Positions 19,595-55,385 of a DNA stretch of 64,000 nucleotides are shown here, piece after piece. Made by a program: the position numbers and the translations under genes. The stretch's first letter is position 1. Every line of letters starts with the position of its first letter. The DNA comes from a virus, in UHGV virus genome UHGV-0057547. One strand, written 5' to 3'. The notes below the pieces were generated by a model. The model worked only from the letters and a program-made list of their open reading frames with translations. It made no database searches and had not been told where the DNA came from.

Positions 19595-20686
19595 CTATTT
19601 ATTATAATTTTTATATTCTTTAATTAGCTTCTTTGTATAATTAAATAAACTATTCGAATCTTTTCTTTGTATTTCAACATCATACCATTCCATAGGTGTT
19701 CTTGAATAAAAATCCCCAAACCCTCCTGGTGCAACATGACCATTATGTACTCCCATACCTATTTCAGTACCATAATATATGCATATATCATTATTTTTAA
19801 AAGAGAACATTATTTCTAAAGCTTGTTTTATTTTATTAATATCATGATTAAAACTTACAGATATTCTCGTTTGGTCGTGATTGTCTAAAAATATAACAGA
19901 CCTTTCTTCATTATTGTCAATAACTAAATGTTGTTTATTTATAACTGTGTTTTTAACCCATCCAGCTTCCTGGAAGTTAAATGTCTTCATACCTGTTTCT
20001 TTTGCATACATATCACTTATTTCAAAACTATCCCATGCTTCTCCTACAATATATGCGTTAGGTTTTATTGAATAAACCATATTACAGAACCATTTCCAAA
20101 ATTCAATCTTATCACCACTTGCAAAAATAATAGCATCAAGTCTAAAACCATCTACCTTATGTTCTAATAACCAAAATCTAATTACACTTTCAATCATTTC
20201 TCTAACTTTTTCAGATTGATTATTAAGTTGTGGCATTTGCTCTGACCAAGGGGCTAGATACCATTTTTTATTACTATAGCAGTATTTCCATTGGTTATTT
20301 ATTTGAACATCAGACCAAAAGTAGCAGTCATTTTTTCCTTCTATACTCTCTTGAAATAATTTATGATGATATCCGGTATGACATAAAACTAAATCTAATA
20401 ATACTTCTAAACCATTTTCATGTGCCTTTTTAATAAAATTATCAAAATCTTCTAAAGTCCCATATTGTTCTCTAATTTTAAAATATGAATCTACAGAATA
20501 CCCATGTTCATTATCAGATGGATGAATAGGAGTTAACCATAAAGTTGTAACTCCCAATTCTACAAAATAAGGTATTTTTTCAGTTAAATCTTTAAAATCT
20601 CTACAAAATGATGGAAAATATATTTCATATATCACTCTTCTTTTTTTATTCATTTTTTTCTTCACACTCCTTGATATAATCTTCAT
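19595..20686 (-). CDS. glycoside hydrolase family 13 (alpha-amylase catalytic domain)-like protein
   Basis: GH13 regions: DGFRLDAIIF (region II), IVGEAWD (region III), FLDNHDQTR (region IV). Confidence 0.6.
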   Translation of the reverse strand: MKIISRSVKKKMNKKRRVIYEIYFPSFCRDFKDLTEKIPYFVELGVTTLWLTPIHPSDNEHGYSVDSYFKIREQYGTLEDFDNFIKKAHENGLEVLLDLVLCHTGYHHKLFQESIEGKNDCYFWSDVQINNQWKYCYSNKKWYLAPWSEQMPQLNNQSEKVREMIESVIRFWLLEHKVDGFRLDAIIFASGDKIEFWKWFCNMVYSIKPNAYIVGEAWDSFEISDMYAKETGMKTFNFQEAGWVKNTVINKQHLVIDNNEERSVIFLDNHDQTRISVSFNHDINKIKQALEIMFSFKNNDICIYYGTEIGMGVHNGHVAPGGFGDFYSRTPMEWYDVEIQRKDSNSLFNYTKKLIKEYKNYNK

Positions 20687-22067
20687 AATACATCCATTTT
20701 AATTTTGTTCCATCTTTTAATTTACCAGCATGTTCTCTTTCACCATTACAACAACTAGAAATATTACTTTTTCCCATATTGAAATATTCTTCAGCTTCGC
20801 ATATAGAATCAAATTTTTTATCTATTGTTATACAATATACTTCTCGTGAACCATAATGATTACGACCTCTATTTTTATTATATCCTATCCTTTTACTTTC
20901 TTCTATTGTATAATCACATTTATCACATTCCACTCCTCTTTTTAGGAATTTTACAACAAGACTTCTATTTATTTTTAACATATCTCCTATTTTAACAACA
21001 TCATGTATTCCACTATTCCATAATTCCCAAGATTTAACACATAAGCTATTTTGACTTTCTTCCCATGCTAATTCCCAATCAATATTAGATAAATCAAAAC
21101 AATCACTAAGTTCTTTTATGATGTTTTCTTTTAACCAATTAAGTTCACTATATCTACAATCAATTGTAATATAATTATCAATATGATTTTTAGCACATTT
21201 ATATTTAAATAAGTCGTTCATTTTTGTTTCGTCTAATTTTCCCCAATTTCCTCCTGGTTGAACATAATGTTGTCCTCCATGTGTTTCTATTATCATATTT
21301 AAGCTAGGAATATAAAAATCATATTCATAATTATTACACCAAGTAAAATTTGTTTTTGATAAATGTAATATATAATCAATTTTCAATTGACTTAATATGT
21401 TTAGCATAAATTTTTCAGGTATGTTTATTCTATCTCCACATATATAACATGAATAACCTCTTTTTACTATATTAGACAAAAGTTTTTTATCTCGTGATAT
21501 TGCGTTACAATCTAAACATTTGAAATAAAACTTTCTATTACTATAACACGATATTTTATAACAATCTTCAAAAGTTAAGTTGTTTTTAGGTATCGCAATC
21601 ATCTTAGCTATTTTGGGATAGTTATAAGCTAAGGAATCCTTTGGATGAAGTTTATTTTGTTTTCTACAATAGCTACATCTATTTCCTTCATAAAAATGTG
21701 AGCAAGTAACACTGTATCCACCATAATCATTATGATAATCACATTTAAGACAATATAACCATATTTTCCTATTACTCCTTTTAGTAATCTGATAAGGATT
21801 AATTCCATTTTTATTATTTTTATCCCAATTCCAAATATCATTTATGTTTAATTTTAATTCTTTTTCTATATAATATCCTATAGTTTCTTCATATCTAATT
21901 GGATGTTTTACTGACCCATCTTTAAAATCTCTATAACTTCTATGCTTAATGATAACTCCATCTTCAAATTGAATACTTATATCTTGATTATTTATGTATT
22001 CTATTATAGTTATTTTCTCACCTTTTTTATTATAGTTGCTTTCTCCTACTCTATTTATTAAAGGCAT
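20646..22067 (-). CDS. Cys-rich hypothetical protein (multiple CxxC zinc-finger-like pairs; possible nuclease-like C-terminus)
   Basis: Numerous CxxC/CxxH pairs (e.g. CLKCDYH, CSYCRK, CLDCN, CYICG). Confidence 0.4.
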   Translation of the reverse strand: MPLINRVGESNYNKKGEKITIIEYINNQDISIQFEDGVIIKHRSYRDFKDGSVKHPIRYEETIGYYIEKELKLNINDIWNWDKNNKNGINPYQITKRSNRKIWLYCLKCDYHNDYGGYSVTCSHFYEGNRCSYCRKQNKLHPKDSLAYNYPKIAKMIAIPKNNLTFEDCYKISCYSNRKFYFKCLDCNAISRDKKLLSNIVKRGYSCYICGDRINIPEKFMLNILSQLKIDYILHLSKTNFTWCNNYEYDFYIPSLNMIIETHGGQHYVQPGGNWGKLDETKMNDLFKYKCAKNHIDNYITIDCRYSELNWLKENIIKELSDCFDLSNIDWELAWEESQNSLCVKSWELWNSGIHDVVKIGDMLKINRSLVVKFLKRGVECDKCDYTIEESKRIGYNKNRGRNHYGSREVYCITIDKKFDSICEAEEYFNMGKSNISSCCNGEREHAGKLKDGTKLKWMYYEDYIKECEEKNE

Positions 22068-30766: not shown

Positions 30767-30950
30767 TTTCCATCAACCCCTAATTCTTTTAAAATTTTAT
30801 TTTCTAATTCATTAGTTGTCATTTCTAGTATCCCATTTATCAAGTGACCGAACATTCTAGTTTTTTCTAATTCTATTATTTCTACTGAAACATCATTACC
30901 TTTTCTAATAAATATTACTTTACAATCTTTTTCAGCTATCACACAATAAC

Positions 30951-31072
30951 GTTTCAGTGCTTGTTACAATTTCAGAACAAGCTTCCCTATTCATCGTATC
31001 CTCTTTCCTTTTTACAAAGTACTCAAGTTTGTATGATACTCCCAGGGCGTAAATTCGGAACTGAACTTTCCT
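30951..31072 (-). ncRNA. conserved structured RNA element (copy 2), directly downstream of promoter 31094..31122
   Basis: Minus-sense AUAGGAAAGUUCAGUUCC-GAAUUUACGCCCUGGGAGU-(UACAAACUUGAGUACUUUGUA hairpin)-GAGGAUACGAUGAAUAGGGAAGCUUGUUCUGAAAUUGUAACAAGCACUGAAAC. Confidence 0.6.
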
Positions 31073-31093
31073 ATTTATTTCTTATTTACTTAT

Positions 31094-31122
31094 ATTATAC
31101 TACTACTCTTATTAAAAGTCAA
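31094..31122 (-). promoter_or_regulatory. consensus promoter cassette driving the RNA element
   Basis: TTGACT (31117-31122), 17 nt, TATAAT (31094-31099). Confidence 0.6.
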
Positions 31123-35609: not shown

Positions 35610-35718
35610 TCAATCACCCACTCCTTAATTATTTATTTTATACTTATATTATACTATTGATATTATATAAAGTCAATAGAATTCATAAAAAAACTAGAGA
35701 AAATTTTCTCTAGTCATT

Positions 35719-36102
35719 TTACTTTAACAAATCTTCATTCTCATATATGTTTCCCACAACTTCAACATCACCAAAATACATATAAATATATAAACTATCT
35801 TCCCATTTCCCTTCATTTACAACACGATATTCACCATTGGTATATTTTACATATAAATTGGCTTCTCCATCGTCAAGTTTAACTTTTAATATATCACCTT
35901 CATATATTTCTTTTCCGTTTTTATCTTTTAAATTTGTATATTGCATTAATCTACAAACATATGAATACGTAGCTCTCCAACGTCTACATTCTTCATCTTC
36001 CATACCAACCTCATAATCATTTAATCCTATAAAATTAACAGTTGCCATTTCTTGTTTTTCAGTATCCCATGCTCTAAATTTAAATTCTCTCATATTCATC
36101 AC
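35719..36102 (-). CDS. hypothetical protein
   Basis: 127-aa ORF; no recognisable motif. Confidence 0.4.
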   Translation of the reverse strand: MMNMREFKFRAWDTEKQEMATVNFIGLNDYEVGMEDEECRRWRATYSYVCRLMQYTNLKDKNGKEIYEGDILKVKLDDGEANLYVKYTNGEYRVVNEGKWEDSLYIYMYFGDVEVVGNIYENEDLLK

Positions 36103-36681: not shown

Positions 36682-37257
36682 TTAAGATAATTCTAAACAT
36701 TTATGTTTTATTTTTTTAACCGCTCTATTGAAAATTTGATTTACATTTTGTTTTGATAAATGTAATATTTTACCCATTTCCTCAAACGTATAACCAGCTA
36801 AGAACAATCTTATAATTTGTCCACTTCTTTCACTTATTAAATCAGCATATTTTATTATTTCTTTAACTAAATCTTTTTCTATAATTTTATCTTCCAAATT
36901 ATAATCATATTCTATTAATTCTAATAATGTTTTACTTTCTTCTTCATGAACAATTTTTCTATCCAAACTATCAACAGTTGCATCTCCTCTTCTTTTCATT
37001 GTATTTTTATTTTGATAAAATTTTTTACAACTCCATTTAATAGAATTTTCTATAAAAACAGATTTTCCCATTACTTCATCTAATTTATCTAGGTCTTTTA
37101 ATAGATTTAATATTATTTCTGATTTCAAATCTTCAAGACCAAAATAATTATTCTTTGCATTGTTATAATAAAACATTCTTGCATATTTATCTATCAGCAT
37201 TTCATAATCATTTATTATGTTAACCTTTAATTCATTATTCATATACCCCATCTCCAT
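36682..37257 (-). CDS. sigma-70-family RNA polymerase sigma factor (phage-encoded, small)
   Basis: Region 2-like DYEMLIDKYARMFYYN; region 4 HTH LHLSKQNVNQIFNRAVKKIK. Confidence 0.6.
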   Translation of the reverse strand: MEMGYMNNELKVNIINDYEMLIDKYARMFYYNNAKNNYFGLEDLKSEIILNLLKDLDKLDEVMGKSVFIENSIKWSCKKFYQNKNTMKRRGDATVDSLDRKIVHEEESKTLLELIEYDYNLEDKIIEKDLVKEIIKYADLISERSGQIIRLFLAGYTFEEMGKILHLSKQNVNQIFNRAVKKIKHKCLELS

Positions 37258-37294
37258 TTATAATTTTTATTTTTCTAATATGTATTCTACTATA

Positions 37295-37406
37295 GTTTCA
37301 ATGCTTACATTTAAGCTTCCCTATTCAACATATCCTCTTTCACCTAATGGCTACTTGAGTTTGTGTGATACTCCCAGGGCGTAAATTCGGGTTTGAACAT
37401 CCCTAC
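37295..37406 (-). ncRNA. conserved structured RNA element (copy 3), in the 5' leader of sigma factor gene 36682..37257
   Basis: GUAGGGAUGUUCAAACCC-GAAUUUACGCCCUGGGAGU...GGAUAUGUUGAAUAGGGAAGCUUAAAUGUAAGCAUUGAAAC. Near-identical to the copy at 41340..41451. Confidence 0.6.
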
Positions 37407-37443
37407 ATATTAATTTTTTATTTTTATTATCTTATTTACTTAT

Positions 37444-37472
37444 ATTATACTATTGCTATTATTAAAAGTCAA
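37444..37472 (-). promoter_or_regulatory. consensus promoter cassette
   Basis: TTGACT (37467-37472), 17 nt, TATAAT (37444-37449). Confidence 0.6.
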
Positions 37473-37507: not shown

Positions 37508-37756
37508 TTAATCTTCATCAACAGTAAGTTTTGCATTAGGCATGAAAACTAAAACTAAAAACCAAAACAATCCGTTTAATCCATTGCTATCATTTAACAT
37601 AGGTGCTAGCCAATTTAACCAAGGAATACCATTGACATTTACATTAACTATGTCTAGTATCCAAATTACATAAATTGCCATCTTAACTAAACTAACTAAA
37701 GTATTAAATAAAAAACATATAAAAATATTTCTATATTTCATTCTCATCCTCTCCAA
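37508..37756 (-). CDS. small membrane protein
   Basis: 82 aa, two hydrophobic segments. Confidence 0.35.
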   Translation of the reverse strand: MERMRMKYRNIFICFLFNTLVSLVKMAIYVIWILDIVNVNVNGIPWLNWLAPMLNDSNGLNGLFWFLVLVFMPNAKLTVDED

Positions 37757-39870: not shown

Positions 39871-40185
39871 TTATAAATAAGTTATTTCTAATCCTAAATT
39901 TTTAGCTACTCCTATAATCTGATATACTTCTTCATCCCTTTCAGGAAGTACATAAACTTCATCAGCAAAGGTTAATATTTTTAATGAATAATTTATCAAC
40001 TCATCCTTATCAATGTCCTTAGAAAGCCAACCAACGGCTTTCAATGGACTTATATATAATATATGTTTCCTTCCATTCTTTAAATCATCCCTAATCAATT
40101 CTCTAATTAAGGATTCAATTGCTTTTTCTTGTCCTTCCGTATTACTACCAGTAATAAATATAACCTTATAATCATCTAACTTCAT
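39871..40185 (-). CDS. possible nucleoside 2-deoxyribosyltransferase-like (DUF4406-like) protein
   Basis: KVIFITGS...ILYISPL...ADEVYVLPE pattern. Confidence 0.3.
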   Translation of the reverse strand: MKLDDYKVIFITGSNTEGQEKAIESLIRELIRDDLKNGRKHILYISPLKAVGWLSKDIDKDELINYSLKILTFADEVYVLPERDEEVYQIIGVAKNLGLEITYL

Positions 40186-40197
40186 TATATCATCCCC

Positions 40198-40848
40198 TTA
40201 TAAATTAGTAGTTTTGTATCTAATTAATTTCATTGCCATGTCGTCAAGTTGTTGAAATGATTCTCTTAATGTTTTAGAAAAATATTGTTCTTTACCTAAT
40301 TCCTTTTCTCCTAATTGAACAGTGCTACCACTAAAATCAGTTTCTTCAAGTTCTTCATTTTCATTTAAACAGTTTACCATTTTATTATATGAAACATCAG
40401 TCATAATTAATACTTCTTTATATTGTATTTCAAATACTAATTTCCATTTTCTTTTATCCTCAGTTCCATTTTTATTAATTTTAAGTTTTAGGTAATCACT
40501 TACTTTATCTCTTATTGGTAATATTTCTATTAAACTTCTTTCAACAGATTTTTGTATATTATTGTATGTTCTATATATATTACTATCATTTTCCATATTC
40601 CTTATTAACCATTTTTCATGAGCTTTAACATGACATACGCCAAACATTATATTAAGTGAATGGTATAGCCATTTATTTTCTTTTTTACTTTGGTTTATTA
40701 TTATTCTTATTTTTGTTTTAAAACTATTTTCTTTTGCTATTCTTCTTGTGCCTTGATTACCATGTTGTTTATATTCTTCATAACTATCTAATTTTCTATA
40801 ATCTTTTCTTTCTTTTAAATTTACATTAGTTTCTAATTCTTTTTTCAC
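40198..40848 (-). CDS. hypothetical protein
   Basis: 216-aa ORF; no recognisable motif. Confidence 0.4.
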   Translation of the reverse strand: MKKELETNVNLKERKDYRKLDSYEEYKQHGNQGTRRIAKENSFKTKIRIIINQSKKENKWLYHSLNIMFGVCHVKAHEKWLIRNMENDSNIYRTYNNIQKSVERSLIEILPIRDKVSDYLKLKINKNGTEDKRKWKLVFEIQYKEVLIMTDVSYNKMVNCLNENEELEETDFSGSTVQLGEKELGKEQYFSKTLRESFQQLDDMAMKLIRYKTTNL

Positions 40849-40878
40849 AATATCTTCTCCCCTTTTTATAATTTATTT

Positions 40879-41256
40879 TTATTTTTTACTTTTACCTTTT
40901 CCTTTTAATTCGGATTCTTTTTCTTTTTCAGCTTTTTTTGATTTCTTAAGTTCTTCAAAATAAGTTGGTAATATTTGTTTCATTTTTTTTCTAAATTCTT
41001 TTGCAAAATATTCTTTAATTTCTTTAACTTCTTTTTCTACCTCTTTAGGAATTTCATCACTTACATCAATTTCATTTAATATACTTAAATGCAATTTTCC
41101 AAAGTCATTATTATATCTTGCACTTTCGGCTCTAGTTTCGCTAAATCTAACTAGATATTTGTTTGTGTATTCCTCATTGAAACAATATTTATATGCATCA
41201 ACTTGTCTGTCAACAAAGTTATCTAATTTTTCTTTATCACTTTTTTTCATAATCAT
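40879..41256 (-). CDS. hypothetical highly charged protein
   Basis: 125 aa, Lys/Glu-rich; downstream of RNA element copy 4. Confidence 0.4.
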   Translation of the reverse strand: MIMKKSDKEKLDNFVDRQVDAYKYCFNEEYTNKYLVRFSETRAESARYNNDFGKLHLSILNEIDVSDEIPKEVEKEVKEIKEYFAKEFRKKMKQILPTYFEELKKSKKAEKEKESELKGKGKSKK

Positions 41257-41339
41257 CTCTCCCTTTTTATAATTTTTTATATTTATTTTAATACTTGATT
41301 GTTATATTTGTATTATTCTTCTTCTTAGCTTATCGGTTT

Positions 41340-41451
41340 GTTTCAATGCTTACATTTAAGCTTCCCTATTCAACATATCCTCTTTCACCTAATGGCTACT
41401 TGAGTTTGTGTGATACTCCCAGGGCGTAAATTCGGGTTTGAACATCCCTAC
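41340..41451 (-). ncRNA. conserved structured RNA element (copy 4), in the 5' leader of gene 40879..41256
   Basis: Near-identical to copy 3. Promoter 41489..41517 immediately upstream. Confidence 0.6.
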
Positions 41452-41488
41452 ATATTAATTTTTTATTTTTATTATCTTATTTACTTAT

Positions 41489-41517
41489 ATTATACTATTG
41501 CTATTATTAAAAGTCAA
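41489..41517 (-). promoter_or_regulatory. consensus promoter cassette
   Basis: TTGACT (41512-41517), 17 nt, TATAAT (41489-41494). Confidence 0.6.
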
Positions 41518-41621
41518 GTATTATTTTTATCTTATTTATTCGTCTACTTAGTTTCATGTTTGTTTTAGCATATGTTACATTTGTACGTAATCCATTTTTT
41601 AAATATAGAAGACTACTATCA

Positions 41622-41786
41622 TGTTTCAGTGCTTGTTACACTTGTATGGAAAGACTACTAAAAAGACAATGGAGTTTCAGTGCTTTGACAAGCTTCCCTG
41701 TTCATCGTGTTCTTTTTCACTTTATATAAGCTACTCAAGTTTTTATAACACTCCAAGGGCGTAAATTCGGAACTGAACTTTCCTAC
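41622..41786 (-). ncRNA. conserved structured RNA element (copies 5 and 6; internally duplicated 3' module), located 47 nt downstream of the tnpB stop codon with no promoter of its own. Candidate omegaRNA-like RNA
   Basis: Same AUAGGAAAGUUCAGUUCC-GAAUUUACGCCCUUGGAGUG-...-GAACACGAUGAACAGGGAAGCUUG core, then two GCACUGAAAC modules. Positionally equivalent to a TnpB omegaRNA (3' of tnpB, same strand). Confidence 0.5.
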
Positions 41787-41832
41787 ATACCGAATATATC
41801 TTGTTGGTGATTATTATTCGGTTTTATTATAT

Positions 41833-43014
41833 TTAATATTGTGCTAAGTTTATAGAGGCATTTAAGTCTCTATCCATTGTGTGTCCACATTCAGGACAAG
41901 TAAAAGTTCTATCTTTCAATTTTAATCTTTCTTTTCCTATTCTTATATATCCACATTTACTACAAGTTTGTGAACTAGGATACCATCTGTCAGCTACTAC
42001 TAATTCAATTCCATAGTCATCACATTTATAAGTTAATTGATTTTTGATTTCATTAAATCCTTGTTGCCCTATTGATTTACTTAGATGTTTATTTTTCATC
42101 ATCCCTTTTACGTTTAAATTTTCAATAACTACTCTTTGTGGTTTCTTTTCTACTATTTGATGTGTCATTGTATGTCTATAATTATTTCTTATACCTGCAA
42201 TTCTATGTTGTAATTTAAGTATTTGTTTTTCTAATTTTATTATATTATTAGTCTTATGATATTTCTTTCCTTGTCTATTCATTTCATATTTTCTACTCAC
42301 TTGTCGTTGCATACGTTTTAATTTCTTTTCTAATTTTCTAACATGAGCAGTTTTATTAATGTTTTTATATACTGTGCCATCACTACATATTGCTAAATCT
42401 TTTATTCCTAAGTCTATTCCTAATGATGTTGGATTTAATTCAGGTTTTTCTTTTATTTCTCTTAAGCCTACACTAATGCTCCAATATATCCCATTGTATG
42501 TGACTCTAGGATTTACATATTTAATTTTAGGATACATTTCGCTTTCTTCATAAGGTATATAACCTTTTCTAGCTAATTTGATTGTTCCTATCTTAGATAT
42601 TTTTACTGTATCTTCAGTGATTTTTATACGTTGATAATGTGGTGCAAAAGCTGGAGTTGTTTTATTTCTACTTTTAAATTTAGGATAACCAACATCAGGT
42701 CTTTTGAAAAAATTTTTAAAAGCATTACAACTATCTGTATATGCAATTACTAGTGCCATTGAATCACAATCTTTAAGCCATTCATTACCTTCTTGATTTT
42801 TGTAAGCAGTGAAATATTTGCTTAATCCTTTTGATGGTATAAACTTTTCTTTTTTAGGAATACTTTCATCTTCATATCTACTTTTTTGAAATGCTAAACA
42901 CCAATTATATACATGTCTTGCACATCCTGCTTGAAAGAACATTTGTTTTTCTTGTTGTTTTGTTGGATATAACCTAACTTTGAAAGTTCTAATCTCCATT
43001 TTCAATTCCCCCAT
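41833..43014 (-). CDS. tnpB: TnpB (IS200/IS605 OrfB-type RuvC-like nuclease), catalytic residues intact
   Basis: FKVRLYPTKQQ N-terminus; RuvC-I GIDLGIKDLA; RuvC-II VVIENLNVKGMMKN; zinc finger CSKCGY...CPECGH; RuvC-III MDRDLNASINLA. Confidence 0.85.
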   Translation of the reverse strand: MGELKMEIRTFKVRLYPTKQQEKQMFFQAGCARHVYNWCLAFQKSRYEDESIPKKEKFIPSKGLSKYFTAYKNQEGNEWLKDCDSMALVIAYTDSCNAFKNFFKRPDVGYPKFKSRNKTTPAFAPHYQRIKITEDTVKISKIGTIKLARKGYIPYEESEMYPKIKYVNPRVTYNGIYWSISVGLREIKEKPELNPTSLGIDLGIKDLAICSDGTVYKNINKTAHVRKLEKKLKRMQRQVSRKYEMNRQGKKYHKTNNIIKLEKQILKLQHRIAGIRNNYRHTMTHQIVEKKPQRVVIENLNVKGMMKNKHLSKSIGQQGFNEIKNQLTYKCDDYGIELVVADRWYPSSQTCSKCGYIRIGKERLKLKDRTFTCPECGHTMDRDLNASINLAQY

Positions 43015-43032
43015 TTATCTTTATTTACTTAT

Positions 43033-43061
43033 ATTATACTATCGTCCTTATTAAAAGTCAA
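43033..43061 (-). promoter_or_regulatory. consensus promoter cassette driving tnpB
   Basis: TTGACT (43056-43061), 17 nt, TATAAT (43033-43038). Confidence 0.6.
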
Positions 43062-43070
43062 TAAATTTTG

Positions 43071-43100
43071 AAAAAAACTGAGAAGAAAAATTTTCTTCTC
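43071..43100 (-). terminator. rho-independent terminator
   Basis: Minus-sense hairpin GAGAAGAAAAUUUUUCUUCUC followed by UUUUUUU. Confidence 0.55.
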
Positions 43101-43390
43101 TATATTAAATCATATAGTTCTATACATATTCTAGAAAGTAAATTATCTATTTCTATCAAATTGTCGGTACAAACAACATCCGTGTATTTCATTAAATTGG
43201 TAAGTGCATTTAAAACTCCTTTAATTTCTTCTTTTGATTTAAAATTTATTATTCCATTTTTAACTCTATTGTATAAAAATAATAAATAATATTCATCATC
43301 ACTCTTGAATCCTTTACCATACTTATTTAATGTTTTCTTTATGGCATCCTCTAGCATTTCACTTTCAACTAAGTTTAAATTATATTTCAT
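43100..43390 (-). CDS. hypothetical protein
   Basis: 96-aa ORF; no recognisable motif. Confidence 0.4.
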   Translation of the reverse strand: MKYNLNLVESEMLEDAIKKTLNKYGKGFKSDDEYYLLFLYNRVKNGIINFKSKEEIKGVLNALTNLMKYTDVVCTDNLIEIDNLLSRICIELYDLI

Positions 43391-43514
43391 AATTCCCCAA
43401 CTCCTTTTTATTTTTTTATTTTATTTACTTATATTGTACTATTACTTTTATTAAATGTCAAGTATTTTTGAAAAAAACTGAGAAGAAATTTTTCTTCTCT
43501 AAATTAAGTATTTA

Positions 43515-43799
43515 TTAAAATGTCTTAATTAAGAATACTATCATTATTACTACTCCTATGCCCCCTAAAATTGCTCCCATTTTACTAAATTTAATTTGTT
43601 CTTCCATTGCCATTATTAATCTTTCTTTGTCCTCTTGTACTGTAAATCCATCTTTTCTCATTTCCTCTATAAGCGTATCTATATTGGCTGAGTATTCATT
43701 GTAATATGCTCTATCTCTAATGTAATTTAGAATAGGTAAAAAAGCTAAACAAATACCAAATACTTCTAATGCTCTACTTATTAATAATGATAAATTCAT
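43515..43799 (-). CDS. small membrane protein
   Basis: Hydrophobic N- and C-terminal segments. Confidence 0.4.
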   Translation of the reverse strand: MNLSLLISRALEVFGICLAFLPILNYIRDRAYYNEYSANIDTLIEEMRKDGFTVQEDKERLIMAMEEQIKFSKMGAILGGIGVVIMIVFLIKTF

Positions 43800-43940
43800 A
43801 AAATACCTCCAATTTAAAGTCCTTAAGACTATTTATTTTTTTTATTTTGTTTTTTTATATTTATTATACTATTATTATATCATGTAGTTTATGTTATGTC
43901 AAGCATTTTTGAAAAAACTGAGAAGAAAATTTTTCTTCTC

Positions 43941-44537
43941 TTATAAACTTAGATTTAATAAATTAACTTGTTCTATTATTTCTTTATTATCAGATAAAAA
44001 AACTTTTTTTCTTCTATCGTACAATACTACATGACTACCACATTTCTTGCAACTAGCACCTTTGAAGGCTTGCTTTTTGCTTTCTGTCAATTTACTAACA
44101 GTTCCTATTATTCCATCTTTTGGACAGATTACAAAATATTTATCATTTCTTTCTTCATATTTCAATTTTACTTTCAGACTATCAGATATTTCTAAATACT
44201 TACAAACTTCTTTCCATCTATCATCATGATTACAATTATCATCGTGTAATTCATTAGCTATATAATGTGCTAATTCATGTTTTAATACGTATTCAAGTTT
44301 TTCATTTGTTGCATTTCTAAAAAATGATTTAGATATTTGCATGTCACAAGGGACTATTTTTTTAGAGTTTCTTGTAAGATAAAATCTATAACAAGCAACT
44401 TTCTTTTTAAATCTTCCATTAAGATTTATATCTTTTTCAAATAATGGTATTTCATTTCCTGTTTTCTTATTAAACATTTCTATGTTTTCATTTAAAAATA
44501 CTCTTACTTCATTAACATTTTTTATTCTTCTTTCCAT
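43941..44537 (-). CDS. SprT-like zinc metalloprotease with C-terminal zinc ribbon
   Basis: HELAHYIANELHDDNCNHDDRW (HExxH plus downstream His); CKKCGSH. Confidence 0.55.
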   Translation of the reverse strand: MERRIKNVNEVRVFLNENIEMFNKKTGNEIPLFEKDINLNGRFKKKVACYRFYLTRNSKKIVPCDMQISKSFFRNATNEKLEYVLKHELAHYIANELHDDNCNHDDRWKEVCKYLEISDSLKVKLKYEERNDKYFVICPKDGIIGTVSKLTESKKQAFKGASCKKCGSHVVLYDRRKKVFLSDNKEIIEQVNLLNLSL

Positions 44538-44650
44538 TCTTCATTCCCCCTAAAATATTTTTATTATTTATTTCTTTTATACTTATATTATATACTAGAT
44601 TTTATCTATTGTCAAGTATTTTTGTAAAAACTGAGAAGAAAAAATCTTCT

Positions 44651-45238
44651 CTATTCAACTTCAACTTCTATTTTTTTAAAAAAATCTATCATTTCTTTTT
44701 CGTATTTATTGAAAAGTCTGACTGCTTTTTTATCTGCTATTTTTTCACATTCGATATTCCTATAGTGTTCCATTTGCATCTCACCAATTAACCAAGTATT
44801 TATTTCATATTCCTTTTCACATTCAAAATATAATTTATTATATCCATGTTTATCAAGCGACCTATTTAGTGTTATCATATGCCCTATTTCATGTAATATA
44901 GAAACCATGCAATAAACTTGAAAAAAATTCATTTCATATTTTTTCATTATGTAATTGTAATTAAAACCATAATGCTTTAAATAATCCACAAAATATTCAT
45001 GCTGTCTAATTATACTTTCTCTTTCGGTATAAACATTTTCAGGAACATATAACAAACTATATCTATCAACTTTTTCTTGTCCTCCACATGCAAAAGATTT
45101 TTTTGAATATTTTTGTATGCAATAAGGTATTCCTTTTTTCAATTCTTTTTTCTCTATAAAAAAATCAAATATTGAATTCATAAAATCTTCTGTGATGTCA
45201 ATATATTTTCTTTTTATTAAATCACTTTTAAGTTTCAT
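44651..45238 (-). CDS. HEXXH metallopeptidase (ImmA/IrrE-like)
   Basis: ILHEIGHMITLN. Confidence 0.45.
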   Translation of the reverse strand: MKLKSDLIKRKYIDITEDFMNSIFDFFIEKKELKKGIPYCIQKYSKKSFACGGQEKVDRYSLLYVPENVYTERESIIRQHEYFVDYLKHYGFNYNYIMKKYEMNFFQVYCMVSILHEIGHMITLNRSLDKHGYNKLYFECEKEYEINTWLIGEMQMEHYRNIECEKIADKKAVRLFNKYEKEMIDFFKKIEVEVE

Positions 45239-45264
45239 TTTTTATTTCCCCCTTTATACTATAT

Positions 45265-45293
45265 ATTATATATTAAGTTTTATATATTGTCAA
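45265..45293 (-). promoter_or_regulatory. sigma-A-type promoter (TTGACA-17-TATAAT) for gene 44651..45238
   Basis: TTGACA 45288-45293, 17-nt spacer, TATAAT 45265-45270. Confidence 0.5.
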
Positions 45294-45302
45294 TCACTTT
45301 TG

Positions 45303-45331
45303 AAAAAAACTGAGAAGAAAAAATTCTTCTC
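45303..45331 (-). terminator. rho-independent terminator, 3' of RNA element copy 7
   Basis: Minus-sense GAGAAGAAUUUUUUCUUCUC followed by AGUUUUUUUC. Confidence 0.55.
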
Positions 45332-45384
45332 TTTTAAAAAAAATTTTCTTTAATAAAATCTTTTATTTCAATTAGAATTACTCC

Positions 45385-45498
45385 GTTTCAATACTTGTTA
45401 TCAAGCTTCCCTATTCAACGTATCCTCTTCCCCTCTTATGAGGTACTCAAGTTTATATGATACTCCAAGGGCGTAAATTCGGAACTGAACTTTCCTAT
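45385..45498 (-). ncRNA. conserved structured RNA element (copy 7), a stand-alone unit flanked by its own promoter (45518..45546) and terminator (45303..45331)
   Basis: AUAGGAAAGUUCAGUUCC-GAAUUUACGCCCUUGGAGUAUC...GGAUACGUUGAAUAGGGAAGCUUGAUAACAAGUAUUGAAAC. Terminator about 45 nt downstream; a second promoter then drives the next gene. Confidence 0.6.
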
Positions 45499-45517
45499 TT
45501 ATTTCTTATTTACTTAT

Positions 45518-45546
45518 ATTATACTATTTTTACTGTTGAATGTCAA
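45518..45546 (-). promoter_or_regulatory. promoter cassette driving RNA element copy 7
   Basis: TTGACA 45541-45546, 17 nt, TATAAT 45518-45523. Confidence 0.6.
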
Positions 45547-45657
45547 GTATTATTTTTAAAAACTGGGAAGAAAAATTTTCTTCCCTTGATTGTTTTCGCA
45601 CAAAAGTAGGCTACGTCAGCACAAAAGTGGGCGACCCTATATTTTATTCCAATTTAA

Positions 45658-46236
45658 TTATTCCAATTTTTTAATCATATAGTGCGTAATTTTTCTTTTT
45701 CCTTTTTTCTTTCTTTTTAAATCATATCCATGCTCTTTTAATATTTTTTCTAAAGTGGGTAAACCTATTAATCTATTTCTGTTATCCCTAAGGTTATTTT
45801 TAATAATTATATCATTAAAAATAATATCTCTAGTAATCCATTTATTAAGTAGATTATCTTCAATGGAAAGGTCAATTTTTATATGTTTATGTTTTCTATG
45901 AATAACACTAAGATGACAATGTATACATAATGTTTTATAAGTATAAAACAAGTGTTTTCCTAATACTTTTTCTTCTATGTTTTTCAACTCTAATTTTGTA
46001 TAATTATCTATTGTTTTATATTCTTCTAGTCCTAACTCAATTAAAGTATCTTTTACCATATTAGCAAATGGATAAATGTGATGAACTTGTAAATCTTCAA
46101 TTCCACCGCATTGTTCACATTTATTCTTTTTAACTAACTTTACAAACTTATACCAAACTTTTATCCTTATATAATTGTTTAATGTTTGTTTTCTTTTTTC
46201 ATTATTTAACATTCCTTTTTTAATTATAATATTCAC
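45658..46236 (-). CDS. HNH endonuclease
   Basis: CEQCGG...LQVHHIYPF...CIHCHLSVIH. Confidence 0.65.
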   Translation of the reverse strand: MNIIIKKGMLNNEKRKQTLNNYIRIKVWYKFVKLVKKNKCEQCGGIEDLQVHHIYPFANMVKDTLIELGLEEYKTIDNYTKLELKNIEEKVLGKHLFYTYKTLCIHCHLSVIHRKHKHIKIDLSIEDNLLNKWITRDIIFNDIIIKNNLRDNRNRLIGLPTLEKILKEHGYDLKRKKKGKRKITHYMIKKLE

Positions 46237-48380: not shown

Positions 48381-48983
48381 TTAATATGTTATTAAATCCA
48401 ATTCTTCCATTTCGTTTAATAAGTCATAATCGCATACATCTTTATAATAGCCATTTTCATATTTAAATAAATTTATCTCATCGCTTAAAGCATTTACTTC
48501 TACATAATATATTTCATCATTTAATTCAACTTCTACTGATTTAGAACATTCTAAGAATAATTCTAAAAATTCTTCTTCATAATTAAATTTCAAATACATC
48601 CATTCAGAATATCCAACTCTTACATCTCCACGTCCACAATGAACTCTAAATCCAACTATATATTCATCTTCTTTAGTATCATAATAAGTTCTAAAATCAA
48701 TATGATTAATTAATGGTGCATTCCAGTTATAAGTATTATCGGCAGTTATTTCTTCTATCCAACCTTCATCAAGTCCTATTTCTAAATAATCATCAATATA
48801 ATATTCATAATCAGTTTCTTCTTCTTTATCCCATATAATACCATTAATAACTTCATAAGGTTCTAAAACATTTAATATATCCATTATATCAACTGTCAAT
48901 TCATTTTCTTTTATATTATAAGTTCCTTCTAAGCATTTTTTTACATCTTCTATTTTTGTTCTTCCAAACATATAAACCTCCAA
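48381..48983 (-). CDS. hypothetical acidic protein
   Basis: 200-aa ORF; no recognisable motif. Confidence 0.4.
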   Translation of the reverse strand: MEVYMFGRTKIEDVKKCLEGTYNIKENELTVDIMDILNVLEPYEVINGIIWDKEEETDYEYYIDDYLEIGLDEGWIEEITADNTYNWNAPLINHIDFRTYYDTKEDEYIVGFRVHCGRGDVRVGYSEWMYLKFNYEEEFLELFLECSKSVEVELNDEIYYVEVNALSDEINLFKYENGYYKDVCDYDLLNEMEELDLITY

Positions 48984-50815: not shown

Positions 50816-50842
50816 ATTATTTTTTGCTTCTACTGTCAATAG

Positions 50843-50952
50843 GTTTCAGTGCTCATTAGTAAGCTTCCCTGTTCAACGTGTTCTCTTTCGTTTTAAACTA
50901 CTCAAGTTTTTTACAACACTCCAAGGGCGTAAATTCGGAACTGAACTTTCCT
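50843..50952 (-). ncRNA. conserved structured RNA element (copy 8)
   Basis: Promoter TTGACATTATATATAAGCTAGTATATAAT immediately upstream. Element ends GCACUGAAAC about 30 nt before the next ATG. Confidence 0.55.
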
Positions 50953-51045
50953 ATTTATATTATATACTAGCTTATATATAATGTCAACTGAAAACTTAAA
51001 AATAAATTTTAAATTTTCTCACTGAGGATATTATTAAATATCCTC

Positions 51046-54756: not shown

Positions 54757-55142
54757 CTCCTTTATATATTTGATTATATTATACTTAACATATTATTAAA
54801 AGTCAATAAATACTCATAAATATATTTAATTTTCCATAAAAATATATATCTCTGAGCCATTTAAATGGATTTTAAGCTTGTTATAACTACTTAATGGATA
54901 AACTATTCATTAAGTTATAAACTCATATTTAAATTTAATTCTTGTCAATTCTGTTTAAAAATAGGCATAAAAAAAATCCTCTACCATAATAGTAGAGGAT
55001 TAATTAGTTTCTAATAATAAAGTCCCTTCTGATTTTATTTTGTTACTTCCATAAGTATCTCTTATAGAACTCATATTTTTTCCTTATTTATTTCTTTAAA
55101 TACTTCTTCATTTTCCTTTCTATCAGGGTGAAACTTCATAGC

Positions 55143-55254
55143 GTTTCAATGCTTGTAACAAGCTTCCCTATTCAACGTGTTCTTTTTCACTTTATAAGCT
55201 ACTCAAGTTTTTGTAACACTCCCAGGGCGTAAATTCGGAACTGAACTTTCCTAC
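55143..55254 (-). ncRNA. conserved structured RNA element (copy 9)
   Basis: Promoter 55270-55320 upstream. GUAGGAAAGUUCAGUUCC-GAAUUUACGCCCUGGGAGUG...GAACACGUUGAAUAGGGAAGCUUGUUACAAGCAUUGAAACGC. Followed only by tiny ORFs (21 and 23 aa). Confidence 0.55.
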
Positions 55255-55385
55255 ATGTTATTTTTAATTTTTTATTTTATTTACCTATATTATACTGCTA
55301 TTATTATTAAAAGTCAATAAATATTTTCATTTTTTTATTTAATTTTCACAAAACTTTTTAACTTTCAGCAATAACTGAGGATTAA

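What the first reader, a model, noticed from the sequence alone, without database searches (positions are those of the whole stretch)
30951..31122. Roughly 115-nt structured RNA family, 8 loci (9 copies), with three covarying helices, always transcribed from a consensus promoter
Copies lie at 17534-17648, 30951-31072, 37295-37406, 41340-41451, 41622-41786 (two modules), 45385-45498, 50843-50952 and 55143-55254, all in minus-strand sense. Conserved single-stranded blocks are GAAUUUACGCCCU(G/U)GGAGU, GA(A/U)(A/C)CG(U/A)UGAA(U/C)AGGGAAGCUU and a 3' (A/G)YUGAAAC. They are separated by three helices that show compensatory changes between copies: a 5' hairpin GGAAAGUUCAGUUCC vs GGGAUGUUCAAACCC vs GGAUGUUCAAAUCC (loop GUUCA conserved; G-C, A-U and G.U pairings at the same position); a middle hairpin UACAAA...UUUGUA vs UAUAA...UUAUA; and a 3' hairpin GCUUG/CAAGC vs GCUUA/UAAGC vs GCUUG/CAAGU vs AUUUA/UAAAU. 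Covariation of this kind indicates selection on RNA structure rather than a DNA-level repeat. The element begins 8-40 nt after the promoter -10, and in most copies ends 20-90 nt before the next start codon. Downstream genes include a sigma factor, a HEXXH peptidase and small proteins. I cannot match it to a riboswitch or ribozyme class by eye. It could be a cis-regulatory leader (attenuator or riboswitch), a self-cleaving ribozyme, or a guide-RNA scaffold; see the TnpB finding.
Basis: seen in the sequence. Interest (0 to 1): 0.85.

Follow-up and report, generated by a model that had tools for sequence, protein, structure and literature searches.

The report
Phage TnpB guide-RNA genes, dispersed copies
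The repeated 115-nt RNA is the known scaffold (RAGATH-18) of the guide RNA for a TnpB nuclease encoded in this phage, but here seven extra stand-alone copies each carry a guide that matches the equivalent gene in sibling phages, which suggests RNA-guided competition or gene drive between related phages.

Summary
There are exactly 8 full-length copies (111-126 nt, all minus strand), and 11 of 24 base pairs show compensatory changes. The core is Rfam RAGATH-18, the published guide-RNA (reRNA) scaffold of IS607-type TnpB nucleases. A catalytically intact TnpB (41833-43014) lies directly upstream of one copy.

Several features are not in the literature I could search:
- Seven copies are stand-alone, sgRNA-like genes sitting behind the phage's ordinary promoter.
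- Conservation stops exactly at ...UGAAAC.
- The following 20 nt match (0-3 mismatches) genes that are intact at the same locus in sibling phages, where they are preceded by 5'-TTA/TTG instead of the scaffold end.
- Sibling guides hit this window reciprocally at nine or ten sites.
- The 3' flank is about 25 nt, against about 64 nt in the published reRNA, and the inferred TAM differs from the published AGGAG/GAGGG.
- The TnpB-linked copy carries a 2-spacer mini-array. Relatives have true arrays with a 29-nt repeat:anti-repeat, and their spacers hit related phages next to TTA.

Best reading: RNA-guided homing or exclusion between co-infecting phages. This is inferred from sequence, not shown by experiment.

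The parts
41833..43014 (-). tnpB gene (393 aa), IS607-lineage RNA-guided nuclease. The RuvC triad D201/E298/D382 and two CxxC motifs are present. Its own standard promoter is at 43033-43061.
   Evidence: Pfam families HTH_OrfB_IS605, OrfB_IS605 and Cas12f1-like_TNB. Best PDB match is 8iaz, the ISFba1 IS607 TnpB, at E=4e-68. Motif positions.
41674..41787 (-). TnpB-linked scaffold copy (c41694), starting 45 nt after the tnpB stop codon. This is the canonical reRNA position.
   Evidence: Rfam 68.4 bits; R1 model 125 bits.
41562..41673 (-). Mini-array downstream of c41694. Spacer a is 41648-41673 (26 nt). Repeat 2 is 41623-41647 (ATACAAGTGTAACAAGCACTGAAAC). Spacer b is 41587-41622 (36 nt). A degenerate terminal repeat is at 41562-41586 (GTACAAATGTAACATATGCTAAAAC).
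   Evidence: Sequence. The same architecture with 3-9 repeats occurs in relatives L008, L010-L012, L026 and L033. Sibling L030 has spacer a with 1 mismatch.
30951..31075 (-). Solo scaffold c30983, the copy named in the finding. Promoter at 31094-31122. Putative guide at 30931-30950 (GTTATTGTGTGATAGCTGAA).
   Evidence: The guide matches the interior of an intact ~115-codon gene in L005, L036 and L041 (18/20), preceded there by GATTG or AGTTG.
17534..17649 (-). Solo scaffold c17556. It has a variant 3' hairpin (AUUUA/UAAAU) and a degenerate -35 hexamer. Guide at 17514-17533.
   Evidence: No convincing protospacer was found.
37295..37407 (-). Solo scaffold c37317 in the leader of the sigma-factor gene (36682-37257). 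Promoter at 37444-37472. Guide at 37275-37294.
   Evidence: The guide is the last 8 codons of a gene of which L005 keeps 170 nt more. The segment is 100% identical to c41362 over 178 nt, from the -35 hexamer to GAAAC.
41340..41452 (-). Solo scaffold c41362. Promoter at 41489-41517. Guide at 41320-41339 (AAACCGATAAGCTAAGAAGA).
   Evidence: No protospacer was found. Siblings L009 and L013 carry a different guide at the same locus.
45312..45546 (-). Self-contained unit c45407. Promoter at 45518-45546, scaffold at 45385-45499, guide at 45365-45384 (GGAGTAATTCTAATTGAAAT), intrinsic terminator at 45312-45331.
   Evidence: The guide is 20/20 to L003 and 19/20 to L006, L009 and L038. In those siblings it lies inside an intact small membrane-protein gene, preceded by TATTA or TAATA.
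50843..50955 (-). Solo scaffold c50865. Promoter at 50959-50987. Guide at 50823-50842 (CTATTGACAGTAGAAGCAAA).
   Evidence: The empty site in L003 and L006 has the same promoter, followed by 35 nt (RBS, ATG and 2 codons) in place of the scaffold. The guide is 19/20 to L006 and L038, preceded by TGTTA or TGTTG.
55143..55255 (-). Solo scaffold c55164. Promoter at 55289-55317. Guide at 55123-55142 (GCTATGAAGTTTCACCCTGA).
   Evidence: In L006 the site holds an intact J-domain gene. The module replaces its RBS and first 19 codons, and the guide is the HPD-motif segment, 20/20, preceded by AACTA.
30785..30804 (-). Protospacer in the window for a sibling's guide (L004 module). Match is 20/20, with 5' flank GAATTA.
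35763..35782 (-). Protospacer in the window for a sibling's guide (L040, 20/20, 5' flank ATTTA). Further ones: 30867-30886 (L036, 20/20, flank GTTTC), 35686-35705 on the plus strand (L028, 20/20; lies on a palindromic terminator with several near matches), 35994-36013 (L001, 18/20, GATTA), 37256-37275 (L040, 20/20, TATTA), 37523-37542 (L019, 18/20, TTTCA), 43924-43943 (L003, 19/20, GTTTA; the guide is terminator-like with many near matches), 48444-48463 (L003/L006, 19/20, ATTTA) and 55525-55544 (L015, 20/20, GATTA).

Best explanation
Each ~115-nt element is the scaffold of a guide RNA (reRNA/omegaRNA) for the phage-encoded TnpB nuclease at 41833-43014. The scaffold has four parts: a 5' hairpin, the RAGATH-18 core, a short 3' hairpin, and AYUGAAAC. 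The roughly 20 nt that follow the scaffold act as the guide.

One copy sits in the canonical place after tnpB and carries a two-spacer mini-array. The other seven are stand-alone single-guide genes, transcribed from the phage's ordinary promoter, and would use the one TnpB in trans.

Each solo guide is the remaining 3' part of a gene that is intact at the same locus in sibling phages. In those siblings the matching sequence is preceded by 5'-TTA/TTG, the inferred TAM. In this phage the TAM and the 5' part of the gene have been replaced by promoter plus scaffold, so its own copy is not a target.

The proposed mechanism follows from this. During co-infection the TnpB-guide complexes cut the sibling's alleles. 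The break is then either repaired from this genome, which copies the cassette and neighbouring markers (homing, or marker exclusion), or it disables the rival.

Shown here: the identity of the RNA, its structure, the scaffold boundary, an intact TnpB, the protospacers, and the flanking motif.

Inferred: expression and loading of the solo RNAs, cleavage, TTA/TTG acting as the TAM, and the outcome of co-infection.
For: 1. Identity. Rfam RAGATH-18 matches 8 times at 57-69 bits, against a gathering score of 44.9. RAGATH-18 flanked by extra sequence and followed by a guide is the experimentally proven reRNA of IS607 TnpB (PMC11061315).

2. Nuclease. TnpB is most similar to the solved ISFba1 TnpB (E=4e-68), and its D/E/D triad and zinc motifs are intact.

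3. Boundary. Conservation ends exactly at TGAAAC in all 8 copies. c37317 and c41362 are 100% identical for 178 nt up to that base, and unrelated after it.

4. Selection on the fold. 97.9% of cells are paired and 11 pairs covary.

5. Targets. 31 distinct guides were collected from the window and syntenic relatives of 90-99% identity. 19 guide families have a match at 0-3 mismatches in siblings lacking that module; the cases inspected lie at the homologous locus and inside genes.

6. Flanking motif. 13 of those 19 guide families have TTA or TTG immediately 5' of the protospacer, against a background of 5.9% (P about 2e-12). Position -3 is T in 16/19 and position -2 is T in 17/19.

7. Independent check of the motif. 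Four array spacers that act in trans hit related phages at 25/27 to 36/36, and all four are flanked by TTA.

8. Reciprocity. Sibling guides match nine or ten sites in this window, six of them 20/20.

9. Not ordinary transposition. The left junctions are ragged, replacing from 35 nt to about 1.26 kb. The TAM is deleted rather than retained. No TnpA was found. By contrast, a second TnpB element in relatives is inserted cleanly after AGGGG.

10. Transcription. c45407 is a closed promoter-to-terminator sRNA unit.
Against: - There is no experimental evidence for this system.
- A match between a 'guide' and the sibling's sequence at the homologous locus is expected for any insertion or replacement polymorphism. 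The argument therefore rests on the flanking-motif enrichment, the trans-acting array spacers, and homology to proven TnpB biology.
- Two window guides (c17556, c41362) and both window array spacers have no known target.
- Several guide-protospacer pairs have 2-3 mismatches, and ISFba1 TnpB is reported to be mismatch-sensitive.
- The 3' flank (about 21-33 nt) is much shorter than the validated ~64-nt flank, and the inferred TAM differs from AGGAG/GAGGG. Activity with this scaffold is therefore assumed.
- Three close siblings that carry solo modules show no copy of this TnpB in the fragments held.
- Most solo copies are also 5' leaders of downstream genes, so a cis effect on expression is not excluded.
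Confidence: 0.62

Rival explanations
1. The solo copies are non-autonomous IS607 derivatives (MITE/PATE-like) or decayed remnants of full insertions. On this view they spread by a transposase acting in trans, or by recombination, and have no present role in targeting other phages. Their 'guides' would simply be whatever flanks them.
For: - Protein-less elements that keep only the omegaRNA are documented for IS605 (PATEs; PMC10055086).
- 36% of RAGATH-18 loci are not next to a TnpB (PMC11061315).
- A flank matching the sibling's empty site is expected for any insertion.
- A second TnpB element in relatives behaves as a classic insertion.
Against: - No TnpA was detected in the window or in sibling loci.
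- The junctions are not those of simple insertion. The TAM and from 35 nt to 1.26 kb of sequence are replaced, and the left edge lies in or near the generic promoter.
- All copies keep the complete fold with compensatory changes and an exact 3' end.
- The same TTA motif flanks targets of trans-acting array spacers.
Confidence: 0.2
2. The element is a cis-acting 5' leader (riboswitch, attenuator or protein-binding operator) that tunes expression of the downstream phage genes. TnpB might act as the binding protein, so that nuclease levels control a regulon.
For: Five or six of the 8 copies lie between a promoter and the next gene's ribosome-binding site, with no terminator between them. The downstream genes include a sigma factor.
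Against: - The RNA belongs to a family with a proven guide function.
- c45407 ends in a terminator and has no downstream gene. c41694 is followed by an array.
- In relative L004 the module sits at the 3' end of a gene and has no promoter of its own.
- The downstream genes are unrelated to one another, and in relatives the same genes are expressed without the element.
- No riboswitch or ribozyme family matches.
Confidence: 0.08
3. TnpB and these guides act as an RNA-guided DNA-binding regulator or roadblock (TldR-like or Cas12m-like), or they target host DNA rather than rival phages.
For: Phage-encoded TnpB derivatives (TldR) that use guide RNAs to repress host genes are known (PMC10705468, listed).
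Against: The RuvC triad is intact, unlike TldR. The guides with known matches all hit sibling phage loci. There is no second match inside the window. Host genomes could not be searched with each guide.
Confidence: 0.05

Closest known systems
IS607 TnpB reRNA with RAGATH-18 core (ISFba1 system; Ren et al. 2024, PMC11061315; Rfam RF03064)
   Same: - The same RNA core, scoring above the Rfam gathering threshold.
- The same order of parts: 5' flank, core, 3' flank, guide.
- A closely related ~390-aa TnpB with an intact RuvC domain.
- One copy lies directly downstream of tnpB.
   Different: - Seven of 8 copies are detached from any tnpB and are driven by a host-genome-type (phage) promoter.
- The 3' flank is about 21-33 nt, ending in a hairpin plus AYUGAAAC. 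The published flank is ~64 nt, and bacterial copies with the same 5' motif end ...UUUUUGGCAACGG.
- The inferred TAM is TTA/TTG rather than AGGAG/GAGGG.
- No TnpA is present.
- The genome is a phage.
- There is a mini-array.
TranC / early type V CRISPR-like systems with reRNA split into tracrRNA and crRNA, including the phage-borne 'CauTranC9' (bioRxiv 10.64898/2026.03.27.714800)
   Same: - Relatives of this TnpB (75-80% nt identity) have arrays of 37-nt repeats with 35-41-nt spacers.
- The scaffold provides a 28-29-nt anti-repeat (dG about -38 kcal/mol, z about -9).
- The spacers hit related phages next to a short T-rich motif.
- CauTranC9 is reported as ~414 aa, from a Caudoviricetes genome, with 38-bp repeats x5 and phage-matching spacers.
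   Different: - In the window the array is vestigial: 2 spacers, a shortened repeat and weak anti-repeat pairing.
- The dominant form is the fused single-guide scaffold, present in 8 dispersed copies.
- Whether this protein belongs to TranC clade 9 could not be tested, because no sequence was available.
PATEs: protein-less IS200/IS605 derivatives that retain an omegaRNA used in trans (Meers et al. 2023, PMC10055086)
   Same: Guide-RNA-only units that depend on a TnpB encoded elsewhere in the same genome.
   Different: - PATEs have defined transposon ends and insert cleanly next to a TAM through a Y1 TnpA.
- Here no ends or TnpA were found.
- The copied unit is promoter plus scaffold.
- The TAM and part of a gene are replaced.
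- The setting is competing phage genomes.
Free-standing homing endonucleases of T-even phages (SegF, SegG, MobE): intronless homing and localized marker exclusion (reviewed in PMC13565253)
   Same: - The nuclease specificity is encoded next to its target locus.
- The carrier's own allele is not cleavable.
- The rival's allele at the homologous locus is the target.
- There is presence/absence polymorphism among close relatives, and mutual targeting.
   Different: - Specificity is supplied by a ~115-nt RNA plus a 20-nt guide rather than by a protein.
- One nuclease gene serves many loci.
- Self/non-self is set by loss of the TAM.
TldR: phage-encoded, nuclease-dead TnpB-like repressors with guide RNAs (PMC10705468)
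   Same: A phage-encoded TnpB-family protein with guide RNA, exapted from transposition.
   Different: TldR is catalytically dead and targets host flagellin promoters. Here the nuclease motifs are intact and the targets are sibling phage genes.

Membership tests
Rfam RF03064 RAGATH-18 | Covariance-model score at or above the curated gathering score (44.9 bits) | tested here: met
   8 matches at 57.3-69.4 bits, each covering the full model length 1-71. 19 more matches in relatives.
Rfam RF03064 RAGATH-18 | Conserved nested helices with covariation | tested here: met
   Helices H2-H5 are 94-100% paired. 7 pairs in the core have double changes.
IS607 TnpB reRNA (Ren et al. 2024) | Lies immediately downstream of an IS607-type tnpB gene | tested here: not met
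   True for 1 of 8 copies (c41694, 45 nt after the stop codon). The other 7 have no tnpB nearby.
IS607 TnpB reRNA (Ren et al. 2024) | Scaffold followed by a variable guide, with a sharp drop in conservation at the junction | tested here: met
   All 8 copies end at TGAAAC and diverge from the next base.
IS607 TnpB reRNA (Ren et al. 2024) | Conserved 3' flank of about 60-64 nt with two stem-loops | tested here: not met
   The 3' flank here is 21-33 nt with a single hairpin. Bacterial copies with the same 5' motif have ~60 nt ending GGCAACGG.
IS607 TnpB reRNA (Ren et al. 2024) | TAM 5'-AGGAG or 5'-GAGGG | tested here: not met
   The inferred motif is TTA/TTG in 13/19 solo guide families and 4/4 array spacers. 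This is inferred from sequence, not biochemically determined.
IS607 TnpB reRNA (Ren et al. 2024) | Binds TnpB and directs dsDNA cleavage | not testable with these tools
   Needs RIP-seq and cleavage assays.
IS607 transposon | Serine-recombinase TnpA and clean insertion that retains the target motif | tested here: not met
   tblastn with three IS607 TnpAs finds nothing in the window or in phage siblings. The junctions replace from 35 nt to 1.26 kb, including the motif. Only 64 kb of the genome was searched.
CRISPR-like array / TranC | At least 3 regularly spaced direct repeats with unique spacers next to the effector gene | tested here: inconclusive
   The window has the scaffold end, one 25-nt repeat and one degenerate repeat, giving 2 spacers. 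Relatives have 3-9 repeats of 37 nt.
CRISPR-like array / TranC | Repeat:anti-repeat complementarity with a tracr-like RNA | tested here: inconclusive
   Met in relatives: 28-29 bp, dG about -38 kcal/mol, z about -9. Weak in the window: -12.6 kcal/mol, z -2.3.
CRISPR-like array / TranC | Spacers match foreign DNA next to a consistent PAM | tested here: inconclusive
   Four spacers from relatives hit related phages next to TTA. The window's two spacers have no match.
Riboswitch / cis-regulatory leader | Consistently placed in the 5' UTR of functionally related genes, with an expression platform | tested here: not met
   The downstream genes are unrelated. c45407 has its own terminator and no gene. 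c41694 precedes an array. No terminator or anti-terminator alternative was seen.
Self-cleaving ribozyme | Match to a known ribozyme family, or demonstrated cleavage | tested here: not met
   No ribozyme family in Rfam reaches threshold in the window. Cleavage itself cannot be tested here.

The most novel reading that the evidence does not exclude
The solo cassettes are natural single-guide RNA genes that work as RNA-guided gene-drive or marker-exclusion elements among co-infecting sibling phages, with one TnpB serving many loci.

This phage lineage also preserves, side by side, both forms of the same guide RNA: the fused form (reRNA) and the split form (tracr-like scaffold plus repeat-spacer array). 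[quoted passage not shown]

New cassettes may arise by a double crossover. The left crossover would fall in the dispersed promoter repeat. The right crossover would fall between a spacer and its protospacer. This would explain two observations: the 178-nt identical unit running from the -35 hexamer to GAAAC, and the loss of the TAM together with the 5' part of the target gene.
Probability: 0.4. Interest if true: 0.9.

Novelty: new variant of a known kind. Interest (0 to 1): 0.74.

Why it matters
TnpB guide RNAs are understood as parts of transposons that help the transposon stay in place. Here the same RNA appears to have been turned into a set of stand-alone guide genes in a large phage. Each is aimed at the version of a gene carried by close relatives, and the relatives aim back.

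If this is confirmed, three things would follow.
1. It would be a natural example of RNA-guided homing, or exclusion, between viruses. A 2026 review could only call this theoretically possible.
2. It would explain part of the 36% of RAGATH-18 RNAs that are not next to a TnpB.
3. It would provide a compact nuclease with a short T-rich TAM and a ~115-nt natural single-guide scaffold.

The lineage has fused guides, a decaying mini-array and full arrays with a long repeat:anti-repeat. That makes the step from transposon guide RNA to CRISPR array directly testable in one set of closely related genomes.

Tried and rejected
- Riboswitch or ribozyme identity: the Rfam gathering scan gives only RAGATH-18.
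- Self-targeting: no guide has a credible second match in the 64-kb window.
- Promoter as part of the element: rejected, because the same promoter precedes about 30 ordinary genes.
- Close isolate relatives: megablast of 40000-46000 against INPHARED found nothing. A protein search gave only distant hits below 45% identity.
- Targets of c41362, c17556 and window array spacers a and b: exact 20-mer scans of IMG/VR found nothing, or only the same locus in a sibling.
- L008 spacer: likewise no external hit.
- Array spacers against phage isolates: 42 concatenated array spacers gave no match in INPHARED.
- TnpA: a bacterial IS607 copy (L056) had no TnpA. TnpAs taken from L044, L049 and L061 give no tblastn hit in the window or phage siblings.
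- CauTranC9 sequence and PAM: the supplement is not held, so identity with that system is untested.
- Whether siblings without the TnpB at the window's site carry it elsewhere: the search for related loci was not sensitive enough to decide.
- 'Recoded immune allele' in L004: I first read L004's upstream copy of the target segment as recoded. It is better described as the natural L005-type allele, with 4 mismatches to the guide.
- Pseudoknot: I considered a pairing between the invariant 5' loop GUUCA and UGAA, analogous to PK2 of ISFba1. Both sides are invariant, so covariation cannot test it.
Full report
**1. Checking the observation**

The sequence at 30951-31122 (minus strand) reads as a consensus promoter followed by a conserved ~125-nt segment. 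An Rfam gathering scan of the whole window returns eight matches, all on the minus strand and all to one family, RF03064 RAGATH-18. They score 57-69 bits against a threshold of 44.9.

I built a covariance model of the full element, from the 5' hairpin to GAAAC, and ran it without filters. It finds the same eight loci at 123-139 bits. The next best match scores 14 bits. The loci are 17534-17649, 30951-31075, 37295-37407, 41340-41452, 41674-41787, 45385-45499, 50843-50955 and 55143-55255.

**2. Structure**

I used 18 distinct full-length copies from the window and close relatives. RNAalifold predicts 24 pairs in six helices. An independent count gives 97.9% of cells paired, against 39-55% when partners are slid by 1-3 columns. 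Eleven pairs have changes on both sides, and 0 of 500 shuffles reach the observed values.

Its 'single-stranded blocks' are partly wrong. CCCU pairs with AGGG (helix H2), and GUAUC/GAUAC alternates with GUGUU/AACAC (helix H3), as in the Rfam model.

**3. What the RNA is**

RAGATH-18 has been shown experimentally to be the core of the guide RNA (reRNA) of IS607-type TnpB nucleases. That reRNA consists of a 5' flank, the core, a ~64-nt 3' flank and a ~20-nt guide, and the reported TAM is AGGAG or GAGGG (PMC11061315).

The ORF at 41833-43014 is a 393-aa TnpB with Pfam families HTH_OrfB_IS605, OrfB_IS605 and Cas12f1-like_TNB. Its best solved relative is ISFba1 TnpB (8iaz, E=4e-68). It retains D201, E298 and D382 and two CxxC motifs. 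Copy c41694 starts 45 nt after its stop codon, which is the canonical arrangement.

**4. Anatomy and context**

Aligning the eight loci with their flanks shows that conservation begins at (A)UGUAGG or AAUAGG and ends abruptly at UGAAAC in every copy. c37317 and c41362 are 100% identical for 178 nt, from the -35 hexamer to GAAAC, and unrelated from the next base. That is the signature of a scaffold/guide junction.

The promoter is not part of the RNA family. The same TTGACTTTTAATAA...TAGTATAATATAAGTAAATAAG occurs about 30 times on the minus strand and usually leads straight to a ribosome-binding site.
- c41694 has no such promoter.
- c17556 has a degenerate -35 hexamer.
- c45407 is a closed unit, with an intrinsic terminator 52 nt after the guide start.
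- The other solo copies read into the next gene.

The window is the replication-gene region of a large, 24% G+C, virulent-type phage. It encodes a split DNA polymerase, a RecJ-like exonuclease, a DnaB-like helicase, a ligase, an HNH endonuclease and a sigma factor.

**5. Relatives and what the guides match**

A 21-nt scaffold motif retrieves loci from IMG/VR contigs of 147-197 kb and from gut and fermentation metagenomes. These are 90-99% identical to the window and syntenic with it. The modules are polymorphic among these siblings, and alignment breakpoints fall exactly on the GAAAC|guide junction.

- **c50865.** Siblings L003 and L006 keep the same promoter, followed by 35 nt (RBS, ATG and two codons) where the window has the scaffold. 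The guide is 19/20 to L006 and is preceded there by TGTTA.
- **c45407.** L003, L006 and L009 have an intact small membrane-protein gene. The guide is its 3' part (20/20 in L003), preceded by TATTA or TAATA. About 1.26 kb in the siblings is replaced in the window by promoter plus scaffold.
- **c55164.** L006 has an intact J-domain gene. The module replaces its RBS and first 19 codons, and the guide is the HPD-motif segment at 20/20, preceded by AACTA.
- **c30983.** L005 has an intact ~115-codon gene. The window's module replaces its 5' half and the guide is 18/20, preceded by GATTG. L004 carries a different module near the 3' end of the same gene. That module's guide is 20/20 to the window allele (30785-30804, preceded by AATTA), while L004's own upstream copy of the segment is the L005-type allele with 4 mismatches.

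Across 48 full units there are 31 distinct guides. Nineteen guide families have a match at 0-3 mismatches in siblings that lack that module; the cases inspected lie at the homologous locus. Nine or ten sibling guides match this window, six of them 20/20.

**6. A target-adjacent motif**

I took one protospacer per guide family. In 13 of 19, TTA or TTG lies immediately 5' of the protospacer, against a 5.9% background on the gene-sense strand (binomial P about 2e-12). Position -3 is T in 16/19, position -2 is T in 17/19, and position -1 is A or G in 18/19.

A flank matching a sibling's empty site is expected for any insertion, so an independent test was needed. It comes from the arrays described in section 7. 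Four array spacers, which are not adjacent to their targets, match related phages:
- L026 spacer: 35/36 in nine loci.
- L088 spacer: 36/36 in six loci.
- L087 spacer: 34/36.
- L033 spacer: 25/27.

All four are flanked by TTA. In the carrier genome, the base 5' of each guide is the scaffold end GAAAC, so the carrier's own copy lacks the motif.

**7. Arrays, and fused versus split guides**

In the window, c41694 is followed by four elements in turn: a 26-nt spacer, a 25-nt copy of the scaffold's end (ATACAAGTGTAACAAGCACTGAAAC), a 36-nt spacer, and a degenerate third repeat.

Relatives with the same TnpB at 91% nt identity (L008) or 75-80% nt identity (L010-L012, L026, L033 and several loci) have 3-9 repeats of 37 nt with 35-41-nt spacers. 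In those relatives, the scaffold's tail right after AGGGAA is a 28-29-nt anti-repeat. It pairs with the repeat at about -38 kcal/mol (z about -9 against shuffles) and leaves AUUGAAAC plus the spacer free.

The duplex occupies the place of the short cis hairpin H6 of the solo copies. The solo copies are therefore natural single-guide forms, and the arrays are a tracr/crRNA-like split form of one and the same guide RNA. In the window's own mini-array the pairing is weak (-12.6 kcal/mol, z -2.3), so its function is uncertain.

**8. What it is not**

It is not a classical IS607 insertion.
- Three IS607 TnpA sequences taken from bacterial-type loci find nothing in the window or in phage siblings. 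Only 64 kb of this genome was searched.
- The left junctions are ragged, and the motif is deleted rather than retained.
- Bacterial copies with the same 5' motif (Gottfriedia, Bacillus, Clostridium) have a ~60-nt 3' flank ending GGCAACGG.

A contrast is available in the relatives. They carry a second TnpB element, 67% identical at the nucleotide level and absent from the window. It is inserted cleanly between ...AGGGG (a Shine-Dalgarno sequence close to the published TAMs) and its guide. The window has both of those sites empty, at 44547 and at 18719/18720.

No guide has a second target inside the window.

**9. Most likely mechanism**

The shown and inferred steps are set out under the best explanation. 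In short, one nuclease gene serves eight or nine guides. Each solo guide marks a locus where this phage has replaced the TAM and the 5' part of an accessory gene that its siblings still carry. In mixed infections the siblings' alleles would be cut. The break would then either be repaired from this genome, copying the cassette and nearby markers, or remain unrepaired.

This is the logic of intronless homing and marker exclusion by Seg/Mob endonucleases in T-even phages, with RNA supplying the specificity. It is also the 'non-restorative homing' that a 2026 review describes only as theoretically possible for phages (PMC13565253).

How new cassettes are seeded is unknown. I suggest a double crossover, with the left crossover in the dispersed promoter repeat and the right crossover between a spacer and its protospacer. 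This fits the 178-nt identical unit and the junctions, but it is speculation.

**10. Comparison with what is known, and novelty**

Already known:
- RAGATH-18 as the TnpB reRNA core.
- Solo omegaRNAs used in trans (PATEs of IS605).
- TnpB-like effectors with arrays (TranC), including a phage-borne ~414-aa example with 38-bp repeats whose spacers match phages.
- Phage-encoded nuclease-dead TnpB derivatives (TldR).

I found no description of the following in the searchable literature:
- dispersed, promoter-driven, single-guide RAGATH-18 genes in a phage;
- their shortened 3' end and TTA/TTG motif;
- their placement next to, and reciprocal matching of, sibling alleles;
- the coexistence of fused and split guide forms in one lineage.

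I therefore rate this as a new variant of a known kind. The identity of the RNA as a TnpB guide scaffold is close to certain (about 0.95). The inter-phage homing or exclusion function is an inference (about 0.6).

**11. Weak points**

- No experiments exist for this system.
- Two solo guides and both window array spacers have no known target.
- Some guide-protospacer pairs have 2-3 mismatches.
- The short 3' flank is untested with any TnpB.
- Three siblings that carry solo modules show no copy of this TnpB in the fragments I hold.
- Most solo copies are also mRNA leaders, so an additional cis effect cannot be excluded.

Noticed in passing
relatives L003 9475-10826, L009 3309-4660, L002 3349-4702; empty sites in window at 44547 and at 18719/18720: A second TnpB element of about 1.35 kb, 67% nt identity to the window's tnpB, with its own promoter and a reRNA ending TTTTAAGTAACG. 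In siblings it is inserted cleanly between a Shine-Dalgarno ...AGGGG and the start region of a gene. The window lacks it at both sites. It looks like a classic IS607-type homing insertion with a GAGGG-like TAM.
   Followed up: partly
window 3032-4564 and 4986-6668 (minus strand): The DNA polymerase is split into two ORFs that match consecutive parts of the same PHROG profile (phrog_405), separated by about 420 nt. This could be an intron, an intein or another mobile interruption.
   Followed up: no
window 20646-22067 (minus strand): A 473-aa ORF with HNH / homing-endonuclease PHROG matches. This would be a protein-based homing endonuclease in the same genome as the RNA-guided system.
   Followed up: no
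window 60900-61230 (minus strand): Four tandem near-consensus promoters (TTGACA-17-TACAAT) about 100 nt apart, each followed by ...CAAAAGCAACTTAGGAA. GC skew changes sign at about 60-62 kb. This is probably the early-region or divergent-transcription boundary.
   Followed up: no
window, minus strand, throughout (e.g. 45293, 44615, 49173, 51918, 52385; 56211, 58137, 58588, 58997): At least three distinct classes of highly conserved promoter-plus-leader repeats, besides the class that drives the guide RNAs. They may be temporal classes, and a phage sigma factor is encoded at 36682-37257.
   Followed up: no
window 43080-43100, 43480-43499, 43920-43940, 44633-44651, 45312-45331: A conserved terminator family, GAGAAGAAAATTTTTCTTCTC followed by AGTTTTTTT. 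One sibling guide (L003 12084, TAAGAGAAGAAAATTTTTCT) lies on such a terminator and so has many near matches across these genomes.
   Followed up: partly
L078 (Vibrio sp. MA40-2 plasmid NZ_CP178629), around 2279-2520: The conserved 5' motif of the scaffold with a shortened core is followed, within about 150 nt, by two copies of GTTCACCCGCACATGCAGGG spaced like CRISPR repeats. This was not examined further.
   Followed up: no
L013 1810-1830 (minus sense): A solo scaffold ends ...CAAGCACTGAAAC AGA GCATTGAAAC. This is two scaffold ends 3 nt apart, as if an array had collapsed by repeat-repeat recombination.
   Followed up: no
L025 about 5577-6530 and L027 about 4929-5882 (siblings, 97% identical to the window): A weak third TnpB-like tblastn match (29-31% identity to a bacterial IS607 TnpB) that has no counterpart hit in the window.
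   Followed up: no
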